In this document: one piece after another, positions 42,987-59,113 of the stretch
Layout: each line of letters opens with the position of its first letter
How positions within the stretch are numbered: the first letter of the stretch is position 1
Source: a virus
DNA: 64,000 bases
Direction: 5' to 3' (one strand)
IMG/VR virus record: IMGVR_UViG_3300020202_000069
Coordinates: 4,524-68,523 of that record
Notes under the pieces: generated by a model
Told to the model about the DNA's origin: nothing
The model's input: only the letters and a program-made list of their open reading frames with translations
Databases searched by the model: none
Translations under genes and position numbers: made by a program

Positions 42987-43031
42987 AAGTTTTCACTTTT
43001 GTTATGCGCCGCCTTTCGCGCCCATGGTGAC

Positions 43032-43460
43032 TCACGCGACCTCCGTCCGGGTGCGCCAGATCCGAGCCTTACCGAACTCCACGCCCTGCCTTCGGGCCCA
43101 CCTGGCGAAGCGCGACCATCGGCGCCGGCAGCGTTTGATGATCTTGGCCGTAGGCTCCATGCGACGCATCTCCGCGAATGTCATCGCGAAAAATCGGTGG
43201 CTCTCTGCGTTGTCGTAGTAGCCGTGACAAACGTAGAACCCGACAAGATCGTCGGGCTCGGCGTCGTCGGGGTGGGGGTACTCCGGCACGAACGCTTGCC
43301 GGGCGAGACCCCAACTGTGGTTTGTCCGCCCGTGGAGCCGCGCCTCGTAGGCTTCCACCTTGGGGCTGATGTGCCTCTCCCACTTCATGATGAGTTTCGA
43401 CAGTTCGAGACCATCGGGAACGCGGACACCGTACAACAGCACATTGATCGACTGGCCCAT
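43032..43460 (-). CDS. Hypothetical protein
   Basis: GGAGGAGG RBS. Confidence 0.65.
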   Translation of the reverse strand: MGQSINVLLYGVRVPDGLELSKLIMKWERHISPKVEAYEARLHGRTNHSWGLARQAFVPEYPHPDDAEPDDLVGFYVCHGYYDNAESHRFFAMTFAEMRRMEPTAKIIKRCRRRWSRFARWARRQGVEFGKARIWRTRTEVA

Positions 43461-43475
43461 GTCATCCTCCTCCGC

Positions 43476-43847
43476 CTACTTCATTGACTGGTACCGACCG
43501 CGGGAAACTTTGCCGACCCTTCGGCCCTCGGCGTGGGCGAGCCGCGCAAGGGTCGTCCTGACGGAAGCGAGTTTCTCTATCCGTCCGCGTGCTTCGAGGC
43601 GAAGCACGCAGTCCTTGGCGGTGAGCGCTACTCCTGGCTCGCCGTCGAGGACTGCGCAGAGCCGATCTGGAAGCGTATCGCCGCCGCTTGTGGCGGTCTG
43701 GGGTTGAGCTTTGGACAGATCCTCTTCGGCGATGAGCCGATCGACCTCCATCTCCAGTTCGGCAAGGAGGGCGGTCAACGCCTGTGCCTTTTGGCGGTAG
43801 GCCTGGATCGCGGCGCCAAGCTGGATGATATGCTCGCGGCGGTTCAT
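43476..43847 (-). CDS. Coiled-coil plus winged-helix protein
   Basis: SVRTTLARLAH...VGKVSRGRY. Confidence 0.6.
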   Translation of the reverse strand: MNRREHIIQLGAAIQAYRQKAQALTALLAELEMEVDRLIAEEDLSKAQPQTATSGGDTLPDRLCAVLDGEPGVALTAKDCVLRLEARGRIEKLASVRTTLARLAHAEGRRVGKVSRGRYQSMK

Positions 43848-43896
43848 ACGCCTTCTCGTCTACTCTGTGGGCCCATGATACGCTGAATATCCCAGT

Positions 43897-44121
43897 TTAT
43901 GACCTTCTCCCTGCAAGCGGCTTGATCCGATCGATCAACTCCGCGATCATCATCTCCCGCCGAATTTGATTGGGTAGGCTCTTGTCGATCGTGGCATTCA
44001 CGGCGTCGATGTTCTCACGAACCATTCTGAGGCACCACGTGTAGTTCTTCTTTTCAAGAGCTGGGTCTGTATCAATCGCGTCCTGAATGGCCCGCGCGTA
44101 CTTCTTCATCTTGTCGCTCAT
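43897..44121 (-). CDS. Small hypothetical protein
   Basis: ATGA coupling to dam. Confidence 0.55.
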   Translation of the reverse strand: MSDKMKKYARAIQDAIDTDPALEKKNYTWCLRMVRENIDAVNATIDKSLPNQIRREMMIAELIDRIKPLAGRRS

Positions 44122-45020
44122 ACAGTTCTCTCCAAACGGGCGAGGTCACGCGCGGAACACTCCGAGATACCATGTCGAGGCCCGGCGCCGATCGGGACGC
44201 TGCTGGTCATCGTCTGGTAGTTCATCACGACGAGTTCCGTGACCTCCCCTCTGCTGGTGCTCTTCGCCGATACCGATCGCTGGACACTGGCCGTCAGGAT
44301 GTTCCATCCGGCGTAGAGCGCGCGCGTCTCCGGCGTGTCGGCGTTCGTGAGCATCCACCGTACTCCGCGCCGGTCGAGAACAGGCAGCCACTCTGCAAGC
44401 GCTTGCTGCTCTTTCGGTCCGAACCCATTCGCCTGGTAGCCCACGAAGTTCGCGGTCTTGCTGATCGGTACGTAGGGCGGGTCAAGGAACACGAACTCGC
44501 CCGCCCGAGCTGCGTCGAGCGCCAACTCGAACGGCATCGACTCCAGCGTCACCCCTTGAAGCAGTCGTGATGCCTCCCGGATCTTCTCCGCGTTGCAGAT
44601 CGTGGGGTTGGTGTACTTGCCAAAGGGCACGTTGAACTCACCCCGCCGGTTTACGCGGTAGAGCCCGTTGAAGCAGGTCCGGTTGAGGTAAAGGAACCAG
44701 GCGGCACGGAGCGCACGAGGAGCCTCCCGAGCCGCGTTGAAGAGCATCCGCACGCTATAGTAGGTCTGCTCGGCGTACCGCAGCGCGGAGAGCTCCTCGA
44801 TCACCGCCTCGGGATCATCTCTCACCGCCTGGTACATCGCGGTCAGGTCGGCGTTCAGGTCGCTCAGGTAGCACGGCGCTCTGCCGAGGTAGTGCCGAGC
44901 GACCGCGCCCCCACCAAGGAACGGCTCACGATAGCCAGTGACGACATCGGGCGATGGTAGTAGGTGGGCGTACTGCTCGGTCAGCCAGCGCTTAAAGCCT
45001 GCCCATTTAAGGATGTTCAT
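44118..45020 (-). CDS. dam: DNA adenine methyltransferase, Dam/D12 class
   Basis: LKWAG.K, EPFLGGGAV, YLNRTCFNGLYRVN...FNVPFG, FLDPPY. Confidence 0.95.
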   Translation of the reverse strand: MNILKWAGFKRWLTEQYAHLLPSPDVVTGYREPFLGGGAVARHYLGRAPCYLSDLNADLTAMYQAVRDDPEAVIEELSALRYAEQTYYSVRMLFNAAREAPRALRAAWFLYLNRTCFNGLYRVNRRGEFNVPFGKYTNPTICNAEKIREASRLLQGVTLESMPFELALDAARAGEFVFLDPPYVPISKTANFVGYQANGFGPKEQQALAEWLPVLDRRGVRWMLTNADTPETRALYAGWNILTASVQRSVSAKSTSRGEVTELVVMNYQTMTSSVPIGAGPRHGISECSARDLARLERTV

Positions 45021-45068
45021 GACGCGATCCCTTCAAGTGGATCTCGCTGGAGCCACCGCAGCCATGGA

Positions 45069-45260
45069 TCAAAGCCTATGACCGTAGGCTTCGTCGACGG
45101 CGCGCGCCACGATCTCGATCGTAACATCGTCGTTCCCGATCTTGGTGTTCCCGTAGGCCCAGTCGATCATCTGCTCGCGAGTCGGTCGGGCCGGCAGGCG
45201 ACCCTCGGCACGCATGCGATCGACTTCAGCCAGAAGCTCCTCGTAGCTTCGCTCTTTCAC
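45069..45260 (-). CDS. Small conserved-looking protein (63 aa, WAYGNTKI motif)
   Basis: GTG after GGAGG; first gene downstream of the promoter at 45485-45513. Confidence 0.65.
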   Translation of the reverse strand: MKERSYEELLAEVDRMRAEGRLPARPTREQMIDWAYGNTKIGNDDVTIEIVARAVDEAYGHRL

Positions 45261-45479
45261 GGAGTCCTCCGATTTGTACTAGTGGACCAAGACCGGGGGC
45301 AGCCGCATGACCGCCCGGACAAGCAGTGATCCCACCCAACACCCAAAGCCCTGGGTCGGCGTTTCTACCGCCGATCACCAGAGCCCGGGTGTGCGCCCGT
45401 TCTCGCTAGGGGACTCCTCCTTGTGTGGTTGGTGGGCGCCCAACTCTTTCTACGGTGGAGCGAACTGCACTCCGTAGTT
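45261..45479 (-). ncRNA. Candidate structured 5' leader/ncRNA (~215 nt)
   Basis: Several hand-verified stems incl. a ~21-bp hairpin, plus long-range GGAGUCC/GGACUCC pairing over the RBS. Confidence 0.45.
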
Positions 45480-45484
45480 AGCGC

Positions 45485-45513
45485 ATTATGCGCTTTGACG
45501 TCGATTCGCGCAA
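45485..45513 (-). promoter_or_regulatory. Sigma-70-type promoter TTGCGC-N17-CATAAT
   Basis: Consensus-like hexamers with 17-nt spacer, intergenic. Confidence 0.65.
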
Positions 45514-45538
45514 GCGAAAGCGCTCCTGATCCTCGTCG

Positions 45539-46024
45539 CTATCTGAGCCTCTTGGAGGCTCGCCTGGATGCGGTTACCTCGCGCCTCAGTCTGCGCTGGA
45601 GCTCCTCTATCGTCTCGCTTCCCGTCATCTCGATCACGACCTCTGCTCGTGGCTGCGCTGGATCTTCGTGGACCTCGACGAGGGCATGCACGATCCTAGC
45701 ATCGTCATGATAGGCGACGCCGTTGAGCCCGTCGGTCACGCTCTTTGCGAGGTTGTCCCAGTCGCCCCGGCGCTCGGCTCGATAGAAGCGCAGGGTCACC
45801 GAATAGGCTCCCCAGTCGGTGCGCCAGCCCTGTGTCTGGTAGACAGCGACTCGGGCCAGGGTGCGGACGTGGGCCTCGTAGGAGGCCGTCTTCTCGGGCG
45901 TGAAGGCATGAGCCCGAGTGCGCCCGTGGCTCCTGCTCACGACTATGCGAGCCCGTGCGCAGGGCACGGGAGGACCGGGGATGGTGAAGCGTAGAGAAGG
46001 CAACGGCACGGGCTTCGCGGTCAT
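45539..46024 (-). CDS. rusA: RusA-family Holliday junction resolvase
   Basis: PGPPVP..RAR, GDWDNLAKSVTDGLNG..YHDDARI. Confidence 0.9.
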   Translation of the reverse strand: MTAKPVPLPSLRFTIPGPPVPCARARIVVSRSHGRTRAHAFTPEKTASYEAHVRTLARVAVYQTQGWRTDWGAYSVTLRFYRAERRGDWDNLAKSVTDGLNGVAYHDDARIVHALVEVHEDPAQPRAEVVIEMTGSETIEELQRRLRREVTASRRASKRLR

Positions 46025-46027
46025 GTC

Positions 46028-46300
46028 CTACGGATCCTTTCCCGCCGTACCTCGAGCTGCGACCTGCTCCCGGATCCATGCGTCCGCTCGCTCCTTCGCA
46101 TCAGCCACCTTGGCAGCGGTAGCGGTTCGCTGGGTTCCGTCGGGGAGCATGGCCGTCCATCGGACATTGGGAGCTCGCCCGCGCACGGTGATGGCATCGT
46201 GGATCGCGGAGTCTTTCTGCCACTTCCTGAACCAGCACCGCTGGACGATCGGTGTCCAATTCGTGAGCCTGTAGCCGTCGAGGATGATGGGCTTGCTCAT
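46028..46300 (-). CDS. Hypothetical protein
   Basis: ORF track; GGAG RBS. Confidence 0.6.
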   Translation of the reverse strand: MSKPIILDGYRLTNWTPIVQRCWFRKWQKDSAIHDAITVRGRAPNVRWTAMLPDGTQRTATAAKVADAKERADAWIREQVAARGTAGKDP

Positions 46301-46307
46301 GGCGCCG

Positions 46308-46739
46308 CTATCTCCGTATCGCCTCTTCGATGCTCAGCACCTCAATCCCGCCGGATCTGAGTAGGTCTAGCCCCGAGGAGTCGCGGTACTGGACCCCATA
46401 CACCACTCTGGCGATTTCGGCGTTGACGATCAGCTTTGCACAGTCGCGGCACGGGCTGTGCGTCACGTACATGTGCTTCTTCTTGCCGAAGTTGTAGTCG
46501 CACTTAACCAGTGCGTTGACCTCGGCGTGGATGAACCCGCTCTTGCCTGGTTCGGTCGACTCGTGCTCGTGCGGGCCGCCCTTGTAGTTGCCATTGTAGC
46601 CGACCGACAGCATCCGGGTGTTATCGGCGGAGATGATAATGGCACCCGCCTGCAAACGCGGATCGTACGACCGGCACGCTATCGTCCGGGCGACAGCCAT
46701 CCAGGTCTCGGCCCACGTCGGTCGCGTGTGCCCTGTCAT
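46308..46739 (-). CDS. dCMP deaminase
   Basis: GYNG, HAEVNA, THSPCRDC zinc motifs. Confidence 0.93.
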   Translation of the reverse strand: MTGHTRPTWAETWMAVARTIACRSYDPRLQAGAIIISADNTRMLSVGYNGNYKGGPHEHESTEPGKSGFIHAEVNALVKCDYNFGKKKHMYVTHSPCRDCAKLIVNAEIARVVYGVQYRDSSGLDLLRSGGIEVLSIEEAIRR

Positions 46740-47491
46740 GCGTTTCTCCCCGTGATCGGATCGACGTCGGAGAGGGCGGATGGTTCAGTACCTGTAGCCT
46801 CTTTTCCAGACCTCTGGAGCCGGGCGATCTCTGCGTTCGCTTCCTCCAGCCGGCGCGCGAGTTCCGGCATCAGGACCCGAGACCCCTCAATCCAGATCCC
46901 ATCCTCCCGCTTCGGCCAGTCAGGAGCATAATCGTCGACGAGAACGACCCGTTCCTCGTCGGGGCCCACGATGCCGCCACAGCAATCCGTCGGGAGCATT
47001 TCATCGTCCTCACGCAGGATAGCCTTCCACGGCGGCTTCGTGGCGATGCGATCGAAGTCCTTCACCTTCGCGATCAGATCGGCGTCAGAGAGGTCTCTGA
47101 CCTCTTCAGGGTCGGAGAGTCTTGCGGGGATCATGGCTCGGATTCCTCGGGGCTCTTGGCGGGCTGCGTCTCCAGCCATAATCCGGTGGATCTCCGCGTC
47201 GAGGATCTGTCCCACTTCCTCGAAGGCATCTTCGCGCGCGCTTTCTCGGTCGCACCCAGCCCAATCACGACGATCGCCGTAGTCCTGGTTAGCTCGCTGA
47301 GCTGCCAGGCGAAGGATCTCGATCCGGTCCTTCAGGTCTTGAAGCACCTGGATCACGCCTGCGCTTGGCGCTCGAGCACGTCGATCCTCGTGGACAGCCG
47401 CTGCGATGGCAACTCGGAGCGCCTGAAGGATCGGATTATTCCCGCCACCGATCAGGTGTTGGGCAATAGCTTCGAGAGTCTCGAACATCAT
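46736..47491 (-). CDS. Hypothetical protein
   Basis: ATGA coupling. Confidence 0.6.
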   Translation of the reverse strand: MMFETLEAIAQHLIGGGNNPILQALRVAIAAAVHEDRRARAPSAGVIQVLQDLKDRIEILRLAAQRANQDYGDRRDWAGCDRESAREDAFEEVGQILDAEIHRIMAGDAARQEPRGIRAMIPARLSDPEEVRDLSDADLIAKVKDFDRIATKPPWKAILREDDEMLPTDCCGGIVGPDEERVVLVDDYAPDWPKREDGIWIEGSRVLMPELARRLEEANAEIARLQRSGKEATGTEPSALSDVDPITGRNA

Positions 47492-48478: not shown

Positions 48479-49234
48479 CTACGCCACCGAATCCAACTCT
48501 TCTTTCGACGCTTCCAGCACGGATCGCCAGTAGACCCGATCCTGTTTGCTTCCCCTCCGCAGAGCTTCGGCGACCATCTCTAGCGCCGCGGGGCCACCTG
48601 CCTCGCACTGATAACAATGCACCGCATGCTGCACGCGGGCCCCCTTCACCGCTTTCCTGAGCAGGTCGGCCGCAATCCGATGCTCGCACGTCGAGAGGAC
48701 CCCCTCGCCATTGACGATCTTGACCACGTTGCGCATGTAGGGATCGTGGTAGGCCTCGGTTTCCGCGTAGCCACTTGCCCGCTCGATCGCGAGCCAGAAG
48801 TCCTCATCGGGAGGTTCGGCCTTGCGCATTGCTGCGCCTCGCACGAATGGGCTCTTGCCACGCACGTCGATCAGGCTCACGTCGATCACGCCCCAGCCCT
48901 GCGTGCCCGGGTAGTCGTCGACCTCGCCGGGGCTCGATAGGATTCGGCTCCAGTCGTTGACCACGAGGTAGCTCTGCGAGCAGTAAACCCGGATCTTGGC
49001 ACCCTTCGAGGGGTCCGCGGACTGTCGCCGAAAGTCGGCGCGCGAGTCCTTGATCTCGAATTCCGTCTGCGTATCGCCAGACTTGCGGCTCGAGGGCCAC
49101 AACTGGATCGCCAAAGCGTCGCACCAGCCCTTGTTGGCGAAGCCGGTAGCATTCCCGACATGGCCCACGAACCTGTACTGCGGCGGCCTGTACAGGGTCG
49201 CGAGCTTGCGACGGATCTCGGCTTCAGCGCTCAT
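48479..49234 (-). CDS. PD-(D/E)xK-like nuclease (MmcB-like)
   Basis: CDALAI...EFEIKDSRADF motif; ATGA-coupled to dnaB. Confidence 0.6.
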   Translation of the reverse strand: MSAEAEIRRKLATLYRPPQYRFVGHVGNATGFANKGWCDALAIQLWPSSRKSGDTQTEFEIKDSRADFRRQSADPSKGAKIRVYCSQSYLVVNDWSRILSSPGEVDDYPGTQGWGVIDVSLIDVRGKSPFVRGAAMRKAEPPDEDFWLAIERASGYAETEAYHDPYMRNVVKIVNGEGVLSTCEHRIAADLLRKAVKGARVQHAVHCYQCEAGGPAALEMVAEALRRGSKQDRVYWRSVLEASKEELDSVA

Positions 49235-50769
49235 CGGGTTCCCTTCTTTCCTCGCCGCTCCTCGGCCGCGGTGCGGCGCTCCTCGATAATTCGGTCCCGA
49301 TCCTCTCGGGACATGTTGTCGAAGCGGACAATATGCGGTGTAAACCACGCGAGGACGCGCCCGCATTCGCCTCCGCCGCGGCACTTGTCCACGAGCAGAT
49401 CAGCCGCCTCCGGGTCAAACACGGCGCCCGGTTCGCGGAACGTATGCGAGCGCTCGAACGCGCTCTCATTCCAGATCAGGATCACCTTGTCCGCGTCGTG
49501 GACGATCGCCTTGCACTCGCGGAGGTCTTCCTTGCGCGGAAGGCGCCCCTTCTGGTGCGCGTCGTCGTTGAGCTGCGCAAGCACGATCACGGGCACACCG
49601 AGCTCTTTTGAGAGGCCCTTGAGTCCTCGTGAAGCCGCGGCAAGCTCCTGGTCGCGCCGCTCATGCGACTGCCCGGTGTCGTCCGCGCCCATGAGTTGGA
49701 TGTAGTCCACGAGGATCACGCGGAGCCGTTGCCCGTGTTTGCGCGCTTGTGCGGCGACACGGCGCGACTTGGCGCGGATCTGGAGCGGAGAGAGCGCGGG
49801 GCGATCGTCGAAGTACACACTGTCGATCGGAAGCCGCTGGGCCGTAGCGGTGATCTCGGCCCACTCCTCCCGAGATATCTTCGACATCTGCGAGGACTTC
49901 GACCCATGGATCCTCGCCTCAGAGAACAGGGCTCGCGTTGCGAGCTCGTGCGCCGTCATCTCGTGCGAAAACACAAGCGCCGCTTGTTGATACTCCGTCG
50001 GCTCGTCCCGGTCGTTCAGGAGCATCACCTTGTGCGCCGCAGCATGGAGCACGATCTGCATTCCCATCGCGCTCTTGCCGATTCCAGAGTGCGCCGCGAT
50101 GATCGCCATCTGGCCCGGCCTGATGCCGCGGATCAAGGCGTCGAGGTCCACAAGGCCGGTCTGGATCCCGGTGTCCGGCGATTCCGACGTTAGATCGCGA
50201 AACACCTCCGCGAGAACGATGCGCAGCGTCGGGGCCTCCGTGTCCTCAGCGGCGTCGTTTGATACTGACTGAATATCCGCCTCAACGCTGTCGAGGAACG
50301 TGGCGACGTCACCGACGCCGACGTACACCTGAGCCTGCGCGTACTGGCACTTCGCCGCGAGTTGCCGGAGGCGCCATGTATCGCGCACAATGCGCGCGTG
50401 ATCGAGTACGTTCGCGACCGCCGGGGTCGCGTCCACGATCTCGGCGAGGTAGCTTGATCCGCCGATCTGCTGGAGCCGCCCGTGTTCGCGGAGCCATGCT
50501 GCGACGGCAACGATATCGGTCGGCTTCCCTTCGGTGCTCAGGGCGTAGCAGGCGCGCGCGATCCACTGGTGGGCATCGGAGTAGAATCGATCGGCCGGGA
50601 GCAAGACGGCGACCTCGGGAACCGCCTCCGGCCACAGCATACACGCGGACAAGACGGCCTTCTCGGCGCCCATGTCATGCGGTGGGATGCGCCCCTCAAT
50701 CGAGGCGGGCGCATTCGGGCGGCGCTCGCCCTGCCCGCTGCGGCGGCGCTCGTCTCGGGGTGGATTCAT
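49231..50769 (-). CDS. dnaB: Replicative DNA helicase
   Basis: PPHDMGAEKAVL N-domain, GKS Walker A, DYIQLM, LAQLN, DADKV. Confidence 0.95.
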   Translation of the reverse strand: MNPPRDERRRSGQGERRPNAPASIEGRIPPHDMGAEKAVLSACMLWPEAVPEVAVLLPADRFYSDAHQWIARACYALSTEGKPTDIVAVAAWLREHGRLQQIGGSSYLAEIVDATPAVANVLDHARIVRDTWRLRQLAAKCQYAQAQVYVGVGDVATFLDSVEADIQSVSNDAAEDTEAPTLRIVLAEVFRDLTSESPDTGIQTGLVDLDALIRGIRPGQMAIIAAHSGIGKSAMGMQIVLHAAAHKVMLLNDRDEPTEYQQAALVFSHEMTAHELATRALFSEARIHGSKSSQMSKISREEWAEITATAQRLPIDSVYFDDRPALSPLQIRAKSRRVAAQARKHGQRLRVILVDYIQLMGADDTGQSHERRDQELAAASRGLKGLSKELGVPVIVLAQLNDDAHQKGRLPRKEDLRECKAIVHDADKVILIWNESAFERSHTFREPGAVFDPEAADLLVDKCRGGGECGRVLAWFTPHIVRFDNMSREDRDRIIEERRTAAEERRGKKGTR

Positions 50770-51863
50770 GCGGCGCCCCGGAGGAAAGAACGAGCCGGCA
50801 TCCCGATCGCGCTGAACAGGAGCGCGGCACGCTCCGCTGGGCTCACAGCAGGCTCGGGCAGAGCCTCGGAGATGGGCTCCGCTCGCCGCGCCCCGATGCC
50901 CGCGAGAGCGGTACGGCCAAGCGCTGCGACCGTGGCCCGGTAGCGCTGCGACGCGGCCCCGGTGGCATGCATCTCCTCGTCCTCAGCCCGGACCTCATCA
51001 AGCTTGGCTTTCTGGTCGGGCGACATCCGGACGCGGCCCGTGCGATCGAACTGGTCGAGGAGCCCACGGCAGAAGTTCCGAGCGTGGCCCCCCGGGGGGC
51101 CGGCGGCCTTCCGACGGATCAGGTCGATGTCGGACTCGCGGCCCTCGTTCGGAGCCCGGATGCTGGCCAGCATGGGGCCCGGTTTGCCATCCGGTTTGCC
51201 ATCCGGTTTGCTATTTTTGCCATCCATCGCGCGCGCGGTTTCAGGTAGCGCCTCGCCCTCTTCACCGTGATTTCTCTTTTCTTTTTCAATATTTGAAGAA
51301 GAGAGAGAAGGAAGATCATGGTTACCGGAGGCGTCTACGGTTTTGCCATCCGGTTTGCTATTTTTGCCATCGGTTTTGCCATCGGTTTTGCCATCCGGTT
51401 TGCTATTTTTGCCATCGTTTGCCATCCGGTTTTGCCATCGCCGGAGGGCTCCGGCGCGACCGGCGGCGGCACGCTTGGCGGACACATCGGGGCGGTTCGA
51501 CCCGATTCGACGAGACGGACGCGACACCTCCACGAGGGGCGCCTCGGTGGACTCGGCGGCGGTCGTCGGTAGCGGGCTCGCGGTGGCACTCCGCGGGCCG
51601 TTGTAGACGTCGAAGTCGTGGATCTGAAACCCGCCCTCTACGAGGTGGGCGAGCCCGTGCTCGTGGCCAGCACGGGCCTCTACGAGGCGCTTCCAGGTCT
51701 TCGCCCCACCGAAGTGGGCGATCATGTCCTTGGGGATAAACCCCTGCGTTCCGCGCTCGTCGCTCCATGCACCAGCGCGCACGAACGCGCCGAAGGCGGC
51801 ATCACCAGCAGCAGCGATCTTCTCATGAAACGCAGCACCTGTAGCGATCTGGAAAGCCATCAC
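50766..51863 (-). CDS. Replication initiator (lambda O-like organisation)
   Basis: N-terminal wHTH-like domain with FQIHDF..YN; internal DGK repeats encoded by DNA direct repeats; directly upstream of dnaB. Confidence 0.75.
   Translation of the reverse strand: MMAFQIATGAAFHEKIAAAGDAAFGAFVRAGAWSDERGTQGFIPKDMIAHFGGAKTWKRLVEARAGHEHGLAHLVEGGFQIHDFDVYNGPRSATASPLPTTAAESTEAPLVEVSRPSRRIGSNRPDVSAKRAAAGRAGALRRWQNRMANDGKNSKPDGKTDGKTDGKNSKPDGKTVDASGNHDLPSLSSSNIEKEKRNHGEEGEALPETARAMDGKNSKPDGKPDGKPGPMLASIRAPNEGRESDIDLIRRKAAGPPGGHARNFCRGLLDQFDRTGRVRMSPDQKAKLDEVRAEDEEMHATGAASQRYRATVAALGRTALAGIGARRAEPISEALPEPAVSPAERAALLFSAIGMPARSFLRGAA
51183..51439. repeat. Probable origin of replication: 10 TTTGCCATC iterons flanking an AT-rich, purine/pyrimidine-skewed tract
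   Basis: Copies start at 51183, 51195, 51216, 51342, 51363, 51375, 51387, 51408, 51418, 51431; tract at 51271-51315. Confidence 0.8.
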
Positions 51864-52980: not shown

Positions 52981-54083
52981 TCGTGGGATCCTCCCGGAGT
53001 GCTGAGTCCGAAGAGGGAGTACTGCTTGGGCGACTCAGGTCGAAGGCAATGTGGCGAGAACCAGATCCGCTCACGGTACGGATTCCCATTATCAGAACCG
53101 TAGCCGCCCTGGGCCTTCCAGGCGACGCAGGTCCATGAATCCGGCATCTGATGCTCACCCTCATATCCGCATAGAGCAATGCGCAGACGTGGATGGTCAC
53201 CGTGCTCGATTGCCCATTGTCGGACCTTAGTCGAGAGTTCCTTATCGTGGTTGGCGTAGAGATCGTCGGCCCCTTCGGAGTAGGGCGGGTCCAGAAGGAC
53301 ACCGGTCAGACCATGGTCTGTGGTCACGGCCGGTGACAGGATACGGATCCAGTCACCGCAGGCGACCCGCACGCGGCGGAGGCGCGCATGTAGCTGGTTC
53401 ATGACTGCTATGATGTTTGCGGTGATGTCGCCCTGGCCCACGGTGCTCGCGTTGGCACCGCGGCCCGCATTCCATAAATGAGGAAGTTGCTCACTCGGGC
53501 CAAGGGTGCGCGCGGAGAGAACTCCGCGCGCACCCTTGGCGAGCATAGGCAGCTTCTCCGGCGGAGCATAGAACCGTGCGCCATGAATGCCTTGGCCAGC
53601 ACCGCTCAAGTGCCGCACTTGAGCGGTGCTGGCCCCCTTGACGCTGCACCAGCCACTACCGATCCAGGCGCAGAGCCCCCATACCCACCAGCCCGCAATC
53701 TTGGGATCGAAGAATTCCGGATCGCAACGCATACGAGTGCGGAACTCCTCCCTAGCCAGGAGCCACTTGTGTCGCGCATGCAGATCGGCCTCATTTACGG
53801 GCCAGTCACACCAGCGCGCCACCTCCTCGGCAATCAACATTCGTCGTCGTTCGCATTCCACGGGCTCGGGCCAGGCAACGGCTCGCCAAAAATTGGCCAG
53901 GTAGCAGTCAAGGTCGTTGACCGTCTCGATTTTTGGCTCCGTCGGTCGAGCCAGGAGAACCGCAAGACTCCCCGCGAAAGGCTCACAGTAATTACGGACG
54001 TCGCCAAGGCGCTTCCAGATCAGATCGGCCGCTCTGGACTTGCCACCGAACCAGGGGAATGGAGCGCGTAGGACCGAACTCAC
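52971..54083 (-). CDS. Second D12-class DNA adenine methyltransferase
   Basis: PFPWFGGKS, EPFAGSLAV, LDPPY. Confidence 0.9.
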   Translation of the reverse strand: MSSVLRAPFPWFGGKSRAADLIWKRLGDVRNYCEPFAGSLAVLLARPTEPKIETVNDLDCYLANFWRAVAWPEPVECERRRMLIAEEVARWCDWPVNEADLHARHKWLLAREEFRTRMRCDPEFFDPKIAGWWVWGLCAWIGSGWCSVKGASTAQVRHLSGAGQGIHGARFYAPPEKLPMLAKGARGVLSARTLGPSEQLPHLWNAGRGANASTVGQGDITANIIAVMNQLHARLRRVRVACGDWIRILSPAVTTDHGLTGVLLDPPYSEGADDLYANHDKELSTKVRQWAIEHGDHPRLRIALCGYEGEHQMPDSWTCVAWKAQGGYGSDNGNPYRERIWFSPHCLRPESPKQYSLFGLSTPGGSHECP

Positions 54084-59084: not shown

Positions 59085-59113
59085 ACTATGAGCAGTATTG
59101 ATACACGTGTCAA
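59085..59113 (-). promoter_or_regulatory. PR-like promoter TTGACA-N17-CATAGT; predicted leaderless cro mRNA
   Basis: -10 ends 8 nt before ATG 59077. Confidence 0.75.

What the first reader, a model, noticed from the sequence alone, without database searches (positions are those of the whole stretch)
44118..45513. Promoter-driven ~215-nt structured leader that can lock the RBS of a 63-aa gene upstream of dam
Seen on the minus strand: TTGCGC-N17-CATAAT; a 5' stem CUACGG/CCGUAG; GUUGG/CCAAC; a ~21-bp hairpin ACACCCGGGCUCUGG-UGA-UCGGCG-GUAGAAA-CGCCGA-C-CCAGGGCUUUGGGUGU; and an 8-bp stem GGGCGGUC/GGCUGCCC. GGAGGAGUCC (45411-45420) can pair 7/7 with GGACUCC, which overlaps the Shine-Dalgarno GGAGGACUCC-GUG (45261-45270). 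Established: long-range SD sequestration is typical of riboswitches, thermometers and type I toxin mRNAs. Inference: an undescribed cis-regulatory RNA or sRNA gating a small protein (WAYGNTKI motif) and Dam methylation, i.e. a conditional epigenetic or anti-restriction switch.
Basis: partly seen in the sequence, partly recalled or inferred. Interest (0 to 1): 0.65.

Follow-up and report, generated by a model that had tools for sequence, protein, structure and literature searches.

The report
Orphan structured leader before phage antitoxin-Dam genes
A 278-base non-coding gap in an uncultured, probably myxobacterial, phage holds a plausible promoter and two real RNA hairpins ahead of a small Fic-antitoxin-like gene and a Dam methylase, but nothing shows that it is a dedicated RNA switch.

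Summary
The 278-nt gap (45261-45538, minus strand) lies between RusA and a 63-aa gene and is truly non-coding.

Two elements are more than chance:
- A 54-nt, 22-bp hairpin (45339-45392): z = -5.6, 0 of 200 shuffles as stable.
- An 8-bp tetraloop hairpin (45297-45316): z = -3.5.
Both fold much better on the gene-sense strand, because all five wobble pairs are G-U on that strand.

The "RBS lock" is not supported:
- The Shine-Dalgarno is no more paired than with 200 shuffled leaders (0.28 against 0.277).
- The proposed box-box pairing has about 4% ensemble probability.

There is no Rfam match. I found no homologue in any collection I could search, so covariation cannot be tested. The -35 hexamer is weak (3 of 6).

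Best reading: an internal promoter plus a long structured 5' UTR heading an accessory, counter-defence gene block.

New point: the 63-aa protein belongs to a conserved family that in Myxococcota sits directly upstream of a Fic-domain gene. It looks like a VbhA/FicA-type antitoxin. The phage copy is an orphan and has glycine where all 30 relatives have glutamate.

The parts
45539..46024 (-). RusA-like Holliday junction resolvase gene (161 aa), the last gene before the gap
   Evidence: Pfam RusA E = 2.7e-16; phrog_140 E = 1.8e-20
45485..45513 (-). Promoter-like element TTGCGC-N17-CATAAT. The -10 lies inside the 13-bp palindrome GCGCATAATGCGC. The putative +1 is near 45478.
   Evidence: Read. It is one of only two TTGNNN-N16-18-YATANT sites in the window; the other is the cro promoter. 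It is below the consensus-scan threshold. The palindrome does not recur beyond chance.
45450..45477 (-). 5' hairpin P1 (CUACGGAG...CUCCACCGUAG). Its 5' arm, ACGGAGU, is also complementary to the SD/start region.
   Evidence: -8.9 kcal/mol, z = -2.15. Pairs with the SD region at p about 0.9 in the full-length ensemble.
45428..45444 (-). Small hairpin GUUGG/CCAAC, no better than chance
   Evidence: z = -0.51, 49 of 200 shuffles as good
45411..45420 (-). SD-like box 1, GGAGGAGUCC. No start codon follows it. It is a 9-of-10 direct repeat of the true SD box and is 7-nt complementary to it.
   Evidence: (D4). Pairing probability with the SD is about 0.04.
45339..45392 (-). Central 54-nt imperfect hairpin: 22 bp, 3 G-U pairs, a 7-nt loop, and a GAUC at the internal bulge
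   Evidence: -35.6 kcal/mol, z = -5.6, 0 of 200 shuffles. The opposite strand gives -27.6. Rank 7 of 25,576 windows.
45297..45316 (-). Hairpin P4: an 8-bp GC-rich stem with 2 G-U pairs and loop AUGC. It is followed by the U-poor tail CCGGUCUUGGUCC.
   Evidence: -13.4 kcal/mol, z = -3.5. There is no structure on the opposite strand (-5.1, z = -0.06). It was not called as an intrinsic terminator.
45279..45308 (-). 9-codon upstream ORF (MRLPPVLVH-stop). Its AUG is in the P4 loop, and its stop lies 8 nt before the SD. It may be a chance ORF.
   Evidence: Read from the in-frame translation and the sequence. Not tested.
45258..45270 (-). Shine-Dalgarno GGAGGA (45270-45265) and the GTG start (45260-45258) of the 63-aa gene
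   Evidence: The start position agrees with the N-termini of 30 homologues.
45069..45260 (-). 63-aa gene: an orphan homologue of a small-protein family that precedes Fic-domain genes in Myxococcota (VbhA/FicA-like). The phage copy has G42 in place of the otherwise conserved E42.
   Evidence: 31 homologues. A Fic gene follows directly in 12 loci. Pfam VbhA scores E = 0.0059 and 0.1 for its closest relatives. AF2 gives a three-helix model with pLDDT 86.7.
44118..45020 (-). D12-class N6-adenine DNA methyltransferase (Dam-like), 300 aa
   Evidence: Pfam MethyltransfD12 E = 7e-53; PADLOC MTase_II / orphan MTase

Best explanation
The 278-nt gap is the control region at the head of an accessory, counter-defence gene block in an uncultured phage whose host is probably a member of Myxococcota. 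It is made of a moderate sigma-70-type internal promoter (TTGCGC-N17-CATAAT) followed by a roughly 215-nt GC-rich 5' UTR.

The block runs through these genes: Fic-antitoxin-like gene, Dam methylase, DUF488 and MazG-like genes, RNA ligase, macrodomain.

The two well-formed sense-strand hairpins are a 22-bp hairpin and an 8-bp GC tetraloop hairpin. They most likely act generically on the mRNA, as stability, processing (RNase III-sized) or partial-pause and termination elements for transcripts that start here or read through from RusA. They are probably not a ligand- or signal-sensing switch. The Shine-Dalgarno can pair with upstream segments, but no more than expected for any GGAGG sequence in 64% GC RNA.

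Shown: the gap is non-coding, the hairpins are real, the structure is strand-asymmetric, and no known RNA family matches.
Inferred: promoter activity, the extent of the transcript, and the role of the hairpins.
For: - Non-coding gap inside a tightly packed run of minus-strand genes.
- The promoter motif is one of two such sites in 64 kb. Both lie in gaps on the coding strand.
- Hairpin statistics and strand asymmetry.
- SD occlusion equals that of shuffled leaders.
- No Rfam hit down to E = 10 and no tRNA or tmRNA.
- The leader is absent upstream of 14 homologues of the 63-aa gene. Most of these instead have a short leader of about 60 nt with their own conserved promoter-like motif.
- Downstream genes are accessory or counter-defence types.
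Against: - The -35 is only 3 of 6 to consensus, and the host sigma factor specificity is unknown.
- Two 7-nt SD complements and a 9-of-10 repeat of the SD box are nominally enriched (P about 0.02). This leaves room for real translational control.
- A 22-bp hairpin is more than a plain UTR needs.
- No expression data and no homologues are available, so neither the promoter nor the generic role of the hairpins is demonstrated.
Confidence: 0.5

Rival explanations
1. It is a genuine translational-control leader. The SD/start region (GGACUCCGUG) is masked by the 5' end (ACGGAGU) or by box 1 (GGAGUCC). Masking would be relieved by RNase III cleavage of the 22-bp hairpin, as in the lambda N leader, or by translation of the 9-codon upstream ORF that ends 8 nt before the SD.
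For: - Two perfect 7-nt complements to the SD region against 0.13 expected, P about 0.02.
- The 5' end pairs with the SD at p about 0.9 in the full-length ensemble.
- The hairpin is long enough to be an RNase III substrate and is sense-strand specific.
- The upstream ORF is present.
Against: - SD accessibility is the same as with shuffled leaders.
- The statistics are post hoc.
- The 5'-SD helix depends on an unverified transcription start and competes with the local P1 hairpin, which forms first.
- No conservation can be shown.
Confidence: 0.2
2. There is no active promoter. The gap is an intercistronic spacer of the long early rightward transcript that starts at the cro promoter. Its hairpins serve as processing sites, like the T7 early RNase III sites, or as a leaky U-poor terminator that divides replication and recombination genes from accessory genes.
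For: - Weak -35, and the promoter scan finds nothing.
- There is no terminator between the RusA stop and the -35, which are only 25 nt apart. Read-through into the leader is therefore expected.
- Genes on both sides are on the same strand.
Against: - The near-consensus CATAAT with TTG at 17 nt is rare in this genome, and the only other site is the cro promoter.
- P4 lacks a U tract.
Confidence: 0.2
3. It is a stand-alone small RNA gene of about 180 nt, running from the promoter to the P4 hairpin, with a trans-acting role. The downstream genes would be expressed only by read-through.
For: The layout of promoter, structured body and a terminal GC hairpin. The structure is specific to the sense strand.
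Against: - P4 has no U tail.
- No Rfam family matches.
- No second copy or target-like complementarity was noticed.
- No homologues were found.
Confidence: 0.05
4. It is a relic: a decayed gene, or a small palindromic insertion flanked by the 9-of-10 direct repeat GGAGGAGTCC / GGAGGACTCC, with no present function.
For: - A direct repeat flanks a 140-nt highly palindromic segment (D4; P about 0.02).
- The phage carries other long perfect palindromes, even inside ORFs.
- GC at every third position rises across 45285-45420.
Against: - All frames are broken by stops and do not look protein-like.
- No terminal inverted repeats are evident.
- No other copy was found in the phage or in 401 Myxococcota genomes.
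- The G-U bias towards the sense strand argues for selection at the RNA level.
Confidence: 0.05

Closest known systems
Lambda pL-N leader (about 220 nt, with an RNase III-sensitive hairpin just upstream of the N Shine-Dalgarno). Recalled from established knowledge, not tested here.
   Same: A promoter-proximal leader of about 215 nt in a temperate-type phage, with a hairpin of about 20 bp or more between the 5' end and the SD of the first gene. The SD region is able to pair with upstream RNA.
   Different: No nut-like boxA/boxB and no N homologue were identified. There is no sequence or covariance-model similarity to anything. The location is mid-operon after RusA, not next to the immunity region.
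Phage 'moron' or accessory cassettes with their own promoter
   Same: An internal promoter-like site heads genes that are not needed for the core lytic functions, here an antitoxin-like gene and a Dam methylase.
   Different: No clear terminator closes the cassette directly after Dam. The block appears to continue for several kb.
Class I Fic toxin-antitoxin modules (VbhT/VbhA, FicT/FicA); PMC3667792
   Same: The 63-aa family is about 62 aa long and sits directly upstream of a Fic-domain gene in 12 loci. It gives a weak Pfam VbhA hit. Its invariant segment NTKIEN resembles the (S/T)xxxE(G/N) inhibitory motif.
   Different: The first motif position is N, not S or T. No PDB sequence hit to VbhA was found and no fold match. 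The phage copy has no Fic partner in the window and has G instead of the glutamate. An E-to-G change abolishes inhibition in VbhA (PMC3667792).
Orphan antitoxin counter-defence genes of phages (for example anti-DarTG1, PMC11825919)
   Same: An antitoxin homologue without its toxin, carried in a phage accessory block. Fic proteins are listed among defence candidates: the bacterial partner matches the PADLOC SoFic model at E = 2e-17.
   Different: No functional evidence. Loss of the presumed inhibitory glutamate argues against simple neutralisation.

Membership tests
Any Rfam family (riboswitch, thermometer, leader, sRNA) | Covariance-model score at or near the family's gathering threshold | tested here: not met
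   cmscan of 43000-47000 at E <= 10 gave only two unrelated noise hits outside the gap. The whole window at gathering thresholds gave 0 hits.
Conserved cis-regulatory RNA (generic) | Homologous copies with compensatory base changes in the proposed helices | tested here: inconclusive
   No homologue was found in any of these searches:
- 57 related loci.
- GenBank phages.
- IMG/VR, by exact 19-mer.
- 401 Myxococcota genomes by BLAST.
- 65 sources and 151 genomes by covariance model R1.
SD-sequestering leader (thermometer or translational riboswitch type) | The SD is more occluded than expected for the composition | tested here: not met
   P(unpaired) of GGAGGA is 0.28 against 0.277 +/- 0.14 in 200 dinucleotide-shuffled leaders. 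SD-complementary 7-mers are nominally enriched, P about 0.02.
Sigma-70-type promoter | -35 and -10 hexamers close to TTGACA/TATAAT at 16-18 nt spacing | tested here: inconclusive
   3 of 6 plus 5 of 6 with a 17-nt spacer. It fails the scan threshold. It is one of only two TTGNNN-N16-18-YATANT sites, both upstream of genes.
Intrinsic terminator or attenuator | GC-rich hairpin directly followed by a U tract | tested here: not met
   No terminator-like site was called in the gap. The tail after P4 is CCGGUCUUGGUCC.
Type I toxin mRNA | A small hydrophobic toxic peptide plus an antisense RNA | tested here: not met
   The protein is a charged, soluble three-helix protein of a conserved family. No antisense promoter-like site was found.
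HK022 put / lambda nut antitermination RNA | Paired, similar RNA elements just downstream of the early promoters | tested here: not met
   Model R1 finds no second copy in the window. The shared 11-mer with 58.7 kb is at chance level: E = 3.5, with many equal matches.
VbhA/FicA class I Fic antitoxin (for the 63-aa protein) | A small gene immediately upstream of a Fic-domain gene | tested here: met
   This holds for the bacterial relatives. In 12 loci a Fic homologue starts 1-8 nt after the small gene, and its motif is HPFAGGNGRTSR. It does not hold for the phage copy, where no Fic gene is present in the window.
VbhA/FicA class I Fic antitoxin (for the 63-aa protein) | Inhibitory motif (S/T)xxxE(G/N) with the glutamate | tested here: inconclusive
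   The family has NTKIEN, so the E and N are present but N replaces S/T. The phage copy has NTKIGN, without the glutamate. The motif definition is taken from PMC3667792.
VbhA/FicA class I Fic antitoxin (for the 63-aa protein) | Significant sequence or fold similarity to VbhA | tested here: inconclusive
   Pfam VbhA gives E = 0.0059 (P0006) and 0.1 (P0004), both below the gathering score. The window protein itself gives no hit. There is no PDB sequence hit and Foldseek finds nothing.

The most novel reading that the evidence does not exclude
The leader is a previously undescribed phage cis-regulatory RNA. Its core would be the sense-strand 22-bp hairpin, flanked by two SD-mimicking or SD-complementary boxes. 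It would time translation of an orphan, glutamate-less Fic-antitoxin homologue and the co-transcribed Dam methylase, for example through RNase III processing or upstream-ORF-coupled unmasking. This would link a counter-defence block to an RNA switch.
Probability: 0.12. Interest if true: 0.6.

Novelty: new member of a known kind. Interest (0 to 1): 0.3.

Why it matters
As an RNA element it matters little at present. It is a single-genome, unconserved leader of the ordinary "promoter plus structured 5' UTR" kind.

It would matter if transcript mapping and reporters showed a real switch heading a counter-defence block.

The more useful outcome is the identification of the small gene. A conserved family of about 62 aa, unannotated in the sources that hold it and paired with Fic-domain genes in Myxococcota, has been captured by a phage without its toxin. 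The captured copy has glycine at the position of the family's conserved glutamate, the presumed counterpart of the inhibitory glutamate. This is a testable lead on how phages deal with Fic-type toxin or defence modules.

Tried and rejected
- Known RNA families: Rfam at E <= 10 on the region and at gathering thresholds on the whole window found nothing. ARAGORN found nothing.
- A hidden protein gene in the gap: all frames are broken or implausible. A rise in GC at every third position is not backed by any ORF.
- Homologues through synteny:
  - The 63-aa gene gave 1 viral, 4 genome and 17 metagenome loci. Their upstream regions are unrelated to the leader.
  - RusA gave 35 viral loci at 47% identity or less and none in 401 Myxococcota genomes. 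The nearest, L002, goes straight from RusA to a holin-like gene.
  - Dam gave 80 viral loci at 47% identity or less.
- Direct searches with the leader: GenBank phages, 3 and then 401 Myxococcota genomes (only 27-30-nt chance hits), an exact 19-mer in IMG/VR, covariance model R1, and this scan's own notes. All were negative.
- Operator-like palindromes at the promoter: no recurrence beyond chance.
- Fold search of the 63-aa model against the PDB: uninformative.
Full report
**Setting.**
The window is part of a 69.6-kb linear IMG/VR virus record estimated at 77% complete, with 64% GC. Almost all genes run on the minus strand. The order is: an immunity/cro region near 59 kb, a DnaB-type helicase (49231-50769), a dCMP deaminase (46308-46739), RusA (45539-46024), accessory genes, and finally terminase and structural genes below 28 kb. 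Homologues of the 63-aa protein come from Myxococcota and Polyangiales MAGs, so the host is probably a myxobacterium. That is an inference.

**The observation.**
The 278-nt gap 45261-45538 is really non-coding:
- The three minus-strand and the plus-strand readings are broken by stops or look nothing like proteins.
- The start of the 63-aa gene is fixed by the aligned N-termini of 30 homologues.
- The neighbouring genes are packed with spacers of 50 nt or less.

**Which parts exceed chance.**

| Element | Coordinates | Energy (kcal/mol) | z-score | Shuffles as good |
|---|---|---|---|---|
| Central 22-bp hairpin | 45339-45392 | -35.6 | -5.6 | 0 of 200 |
| P4 (8-bp stem) | 45297-45316 | -13.4 | -3.5 | 1 of 200 |
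| 5' stem P1 | 45450-45477 | -8.9 | -2.15 | 6 of 200 |
| GUUGG/CCAAC | 45428-45444 | -5.0 | -0.5 | 49 of 200 |

(All.)

- The central hairpin is the 7th most stable of 25,576 sliding 60-nt windows in the window. Several of the others lie inside ORFs, so strong hairpins are not unique to this gap.
- The whole leader is unremarkable: z = -1.65 for 231 nt and -1.97 for 196 nt.
- Both good hairpins are much weaker on the opposite strand: -27.6 for the long hairpin, and -5.1 (z = -0.06) for P4. The reason is that all five wobble pairs are G-U on the sense strand. This points to an RNA-level feature of the sense transcript rather than a DNA palindrome or an antisense RNA. The same trend holds for the whole 196 nt.

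**Promoter.**
TTGCGC-N17-CATAAT matches the consensus at 8 of 12 positions and fails the scan's threshold. The relaxed pattern TTGNNN-N16-18-YATANT occurs only twice on both strands of the 64-kb window, with 1.1 expected by chance. The two sites are this one and the cro promoter TTGACA-N17-CATAGT at 59113. Both lie in non-coding gaps and point into genes. I regard the promoter as plausible, not shown. Two palindromes overlap it, but they recur nowhere beyond chance.

**The RBS lock.**
- In the partition function of the putative transcript (45479 to +30 of the ORF), the SD hexamer is unpaired with probability 0.28. With 200 dinucleotide-shuffled leaders the mean is 0.277 +/- 0.14, and 59% of shuffles are as low or lower.
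The preferred partners are the 5' end ACGGAGU (about 0.9) and a CCCC run.
- The leader does hold two perfect 7-nt complements to the SD/start region where 0.13 are expected (P about 0.02). Box 1 is a 9-of-10 direct repeat of the SD box (P about 0.02).
- These two facts are not independent, because GGA-N-UCC is a quasi-palindrome. Both were chosen after looking at the sequence.
- Conclusion: the pairing is possible and nominally enriched, but SD masking is not beyond what any GGAGG sequence meets in 64% GC RNA.

**Comparative evidence.**
- No Rfam family matches and there is no tRNA or tmRNA.
- I looked for homologous loci through the 63-aa gene, RusA and Dam.
- I also searched directly with the leader by BLAST, nhmmer, an exact 19-mer and a single-sequence covariance model.
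- Nothing related was found.
- Most of the 14 homologues of the 63-aa gene with readable upstream DNA have a short leader of about 60 nt, with their own conserved TTGC...CTGCACATTGGTACC motif. None shows similarity to the phage leader.
- Covariation is therefore untested, not failed.

**What the small gene is.**
- The 63-aa protein belongs to a well-conserved family with 22 invariant positions, including WAYGNTKI.
- In 12 bacterial or metagenomic loci the gene is followed within 1-8 nt by a Fic-domain gene of about 218 aa. The evidence is Pfam Fic at E about 1e-17, motif HPFAGGNGRTSR, and a PADLOC SoFic match at E = 2e-17.
- Its closest relatives give weak hits to Pfam VbhA: E = 0.0059 and 0.1, both below the gathering score.
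- The invariant NTKIEN resembles the (S/T)xxxE(G/N) inhibitory motif of class I Fic antitoxins. In that family an E-to-G change abolishes inhibition (PMC3667792).
- AlphaFold gives a confident three-helix model (pLDDT 86.7). PDB sequence and fold searches were uninformative.
- The phage copy has no Fic partner in the window. It is the only one of 31 sequences with glycine at the glutamate position, and it has isoleucine at the near-invariant R48.
- It is therefore best described as an orphan Fic-antitoxin-like gene. It is not a toxin, so the type I toxin analogy does not apply.
- Orphan antitoxins as phage counter-defence have precedent (PMC11825919). Whether this one neutralises, ignores or de-represses a host Fic enzyme is unknown.

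**Mechanism.**
- Most likely (about 0.5): the gap is an internal promoter plus a long structured 5' UTR that opens an accessory, counter-defence block. The block holds the antitoxin-like gene, Dam, DUF488 and MazG-like genes, an RNA ligase and a macrodomain. The two sense-strand hairpins would act on mRNA stability, processing or pausing.
- Rival 1 (0.2): real translational control through 5'-SD or box 1-SD pairing, relieved by RNase III cleavage or by a 9-codon upstream ORF whose AUG sits in the P4 loop.
- Rival 2 (0.2): a promoter-less intercistronic spacer with a processing or leaky termination site.
- Rival 3 (0.05): a stand-alone sRNA.
- Rival 4 (0.05): a relic or insertion.

**Verdict.**
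The sequence observation is confirmed in detail and partly exceeds chance, through two hairpins with a sense-strand bias. The interpretation as an RBS-locking switch that gates Dam is not supported by the tests available. It cannot be finally excluded without homologues or experiments. As an RNA element it is an ordinary, lineage-specific leader. The identity of the small gene is the more interesting result.

Noticed in passing
window 45069-45260 (-): The 63-aa protein is an orphan member of a family that precedes Fic-domain genes in Myxococcota (VbhA/FicA-like). Only the phage copy has Gly at the conserved Glu42 (NTKIGN against NTKIEN) and Ile at the near-invariant Arg48.
   Followed up: partly
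L038, L039, L042, L044-L047, L049 upstream of the small gene (for example L044:2800-2883): The bacterial homologues share a conserved upstream motif, CTTGCAAGTTGC...CTGCACATTGGTACCGTA, about 45-90 nt before the ATG. It is probably the promoter or operator of the Fic module.
   Followed up: no
L053:1138-1767: One metagenomic relative is a fusion. A MazG/PRA-PH-like pyrophosphohydrolase domain (Pfam E = 2e-11) carries the small-protein domain at its C-terminus. The phage window also encodes a MazG-like gene downstream of the 63-aa gene.
   Followed up: no
window 53483-53556 and 53594-53634: These are the two strongest hairpins of the window (-49.8 and -41.9 kcal/mol). One is a perfect 20+20 palindrome and the other a 35-nt-arm inverted repeat. 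They lie 40 nt apart inside a 370-aa ORF, of which only the first 70 residues match D12 methyltransferase.
   Followed up: partly
window 43601-43660: A 20-bp near-perfect hairpin (-41.2 kcal/mol) lies inside the 123-aa ORF 43476-43847, two genes downstream of Dam. There is no U tract after it.
   Followed up: no
window 51363-51420 (-): Three copies of AACCGATGGCAAA-like 13-mers (51363, 51375, 51408) lie inside the 365-aa ORF just upstream of the DnaB helicase gene. They may be origin iterons within an initiator gene.
   Followed up: no
window 45279-45308 (-): A 9-codon upstream ORF (MRLPPVLVH) starts in the loop of hairpin P4 and stops 8 nt before the Shine-Dalgarno of the 63-aa gene, in the same frame.
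   Followed up: no
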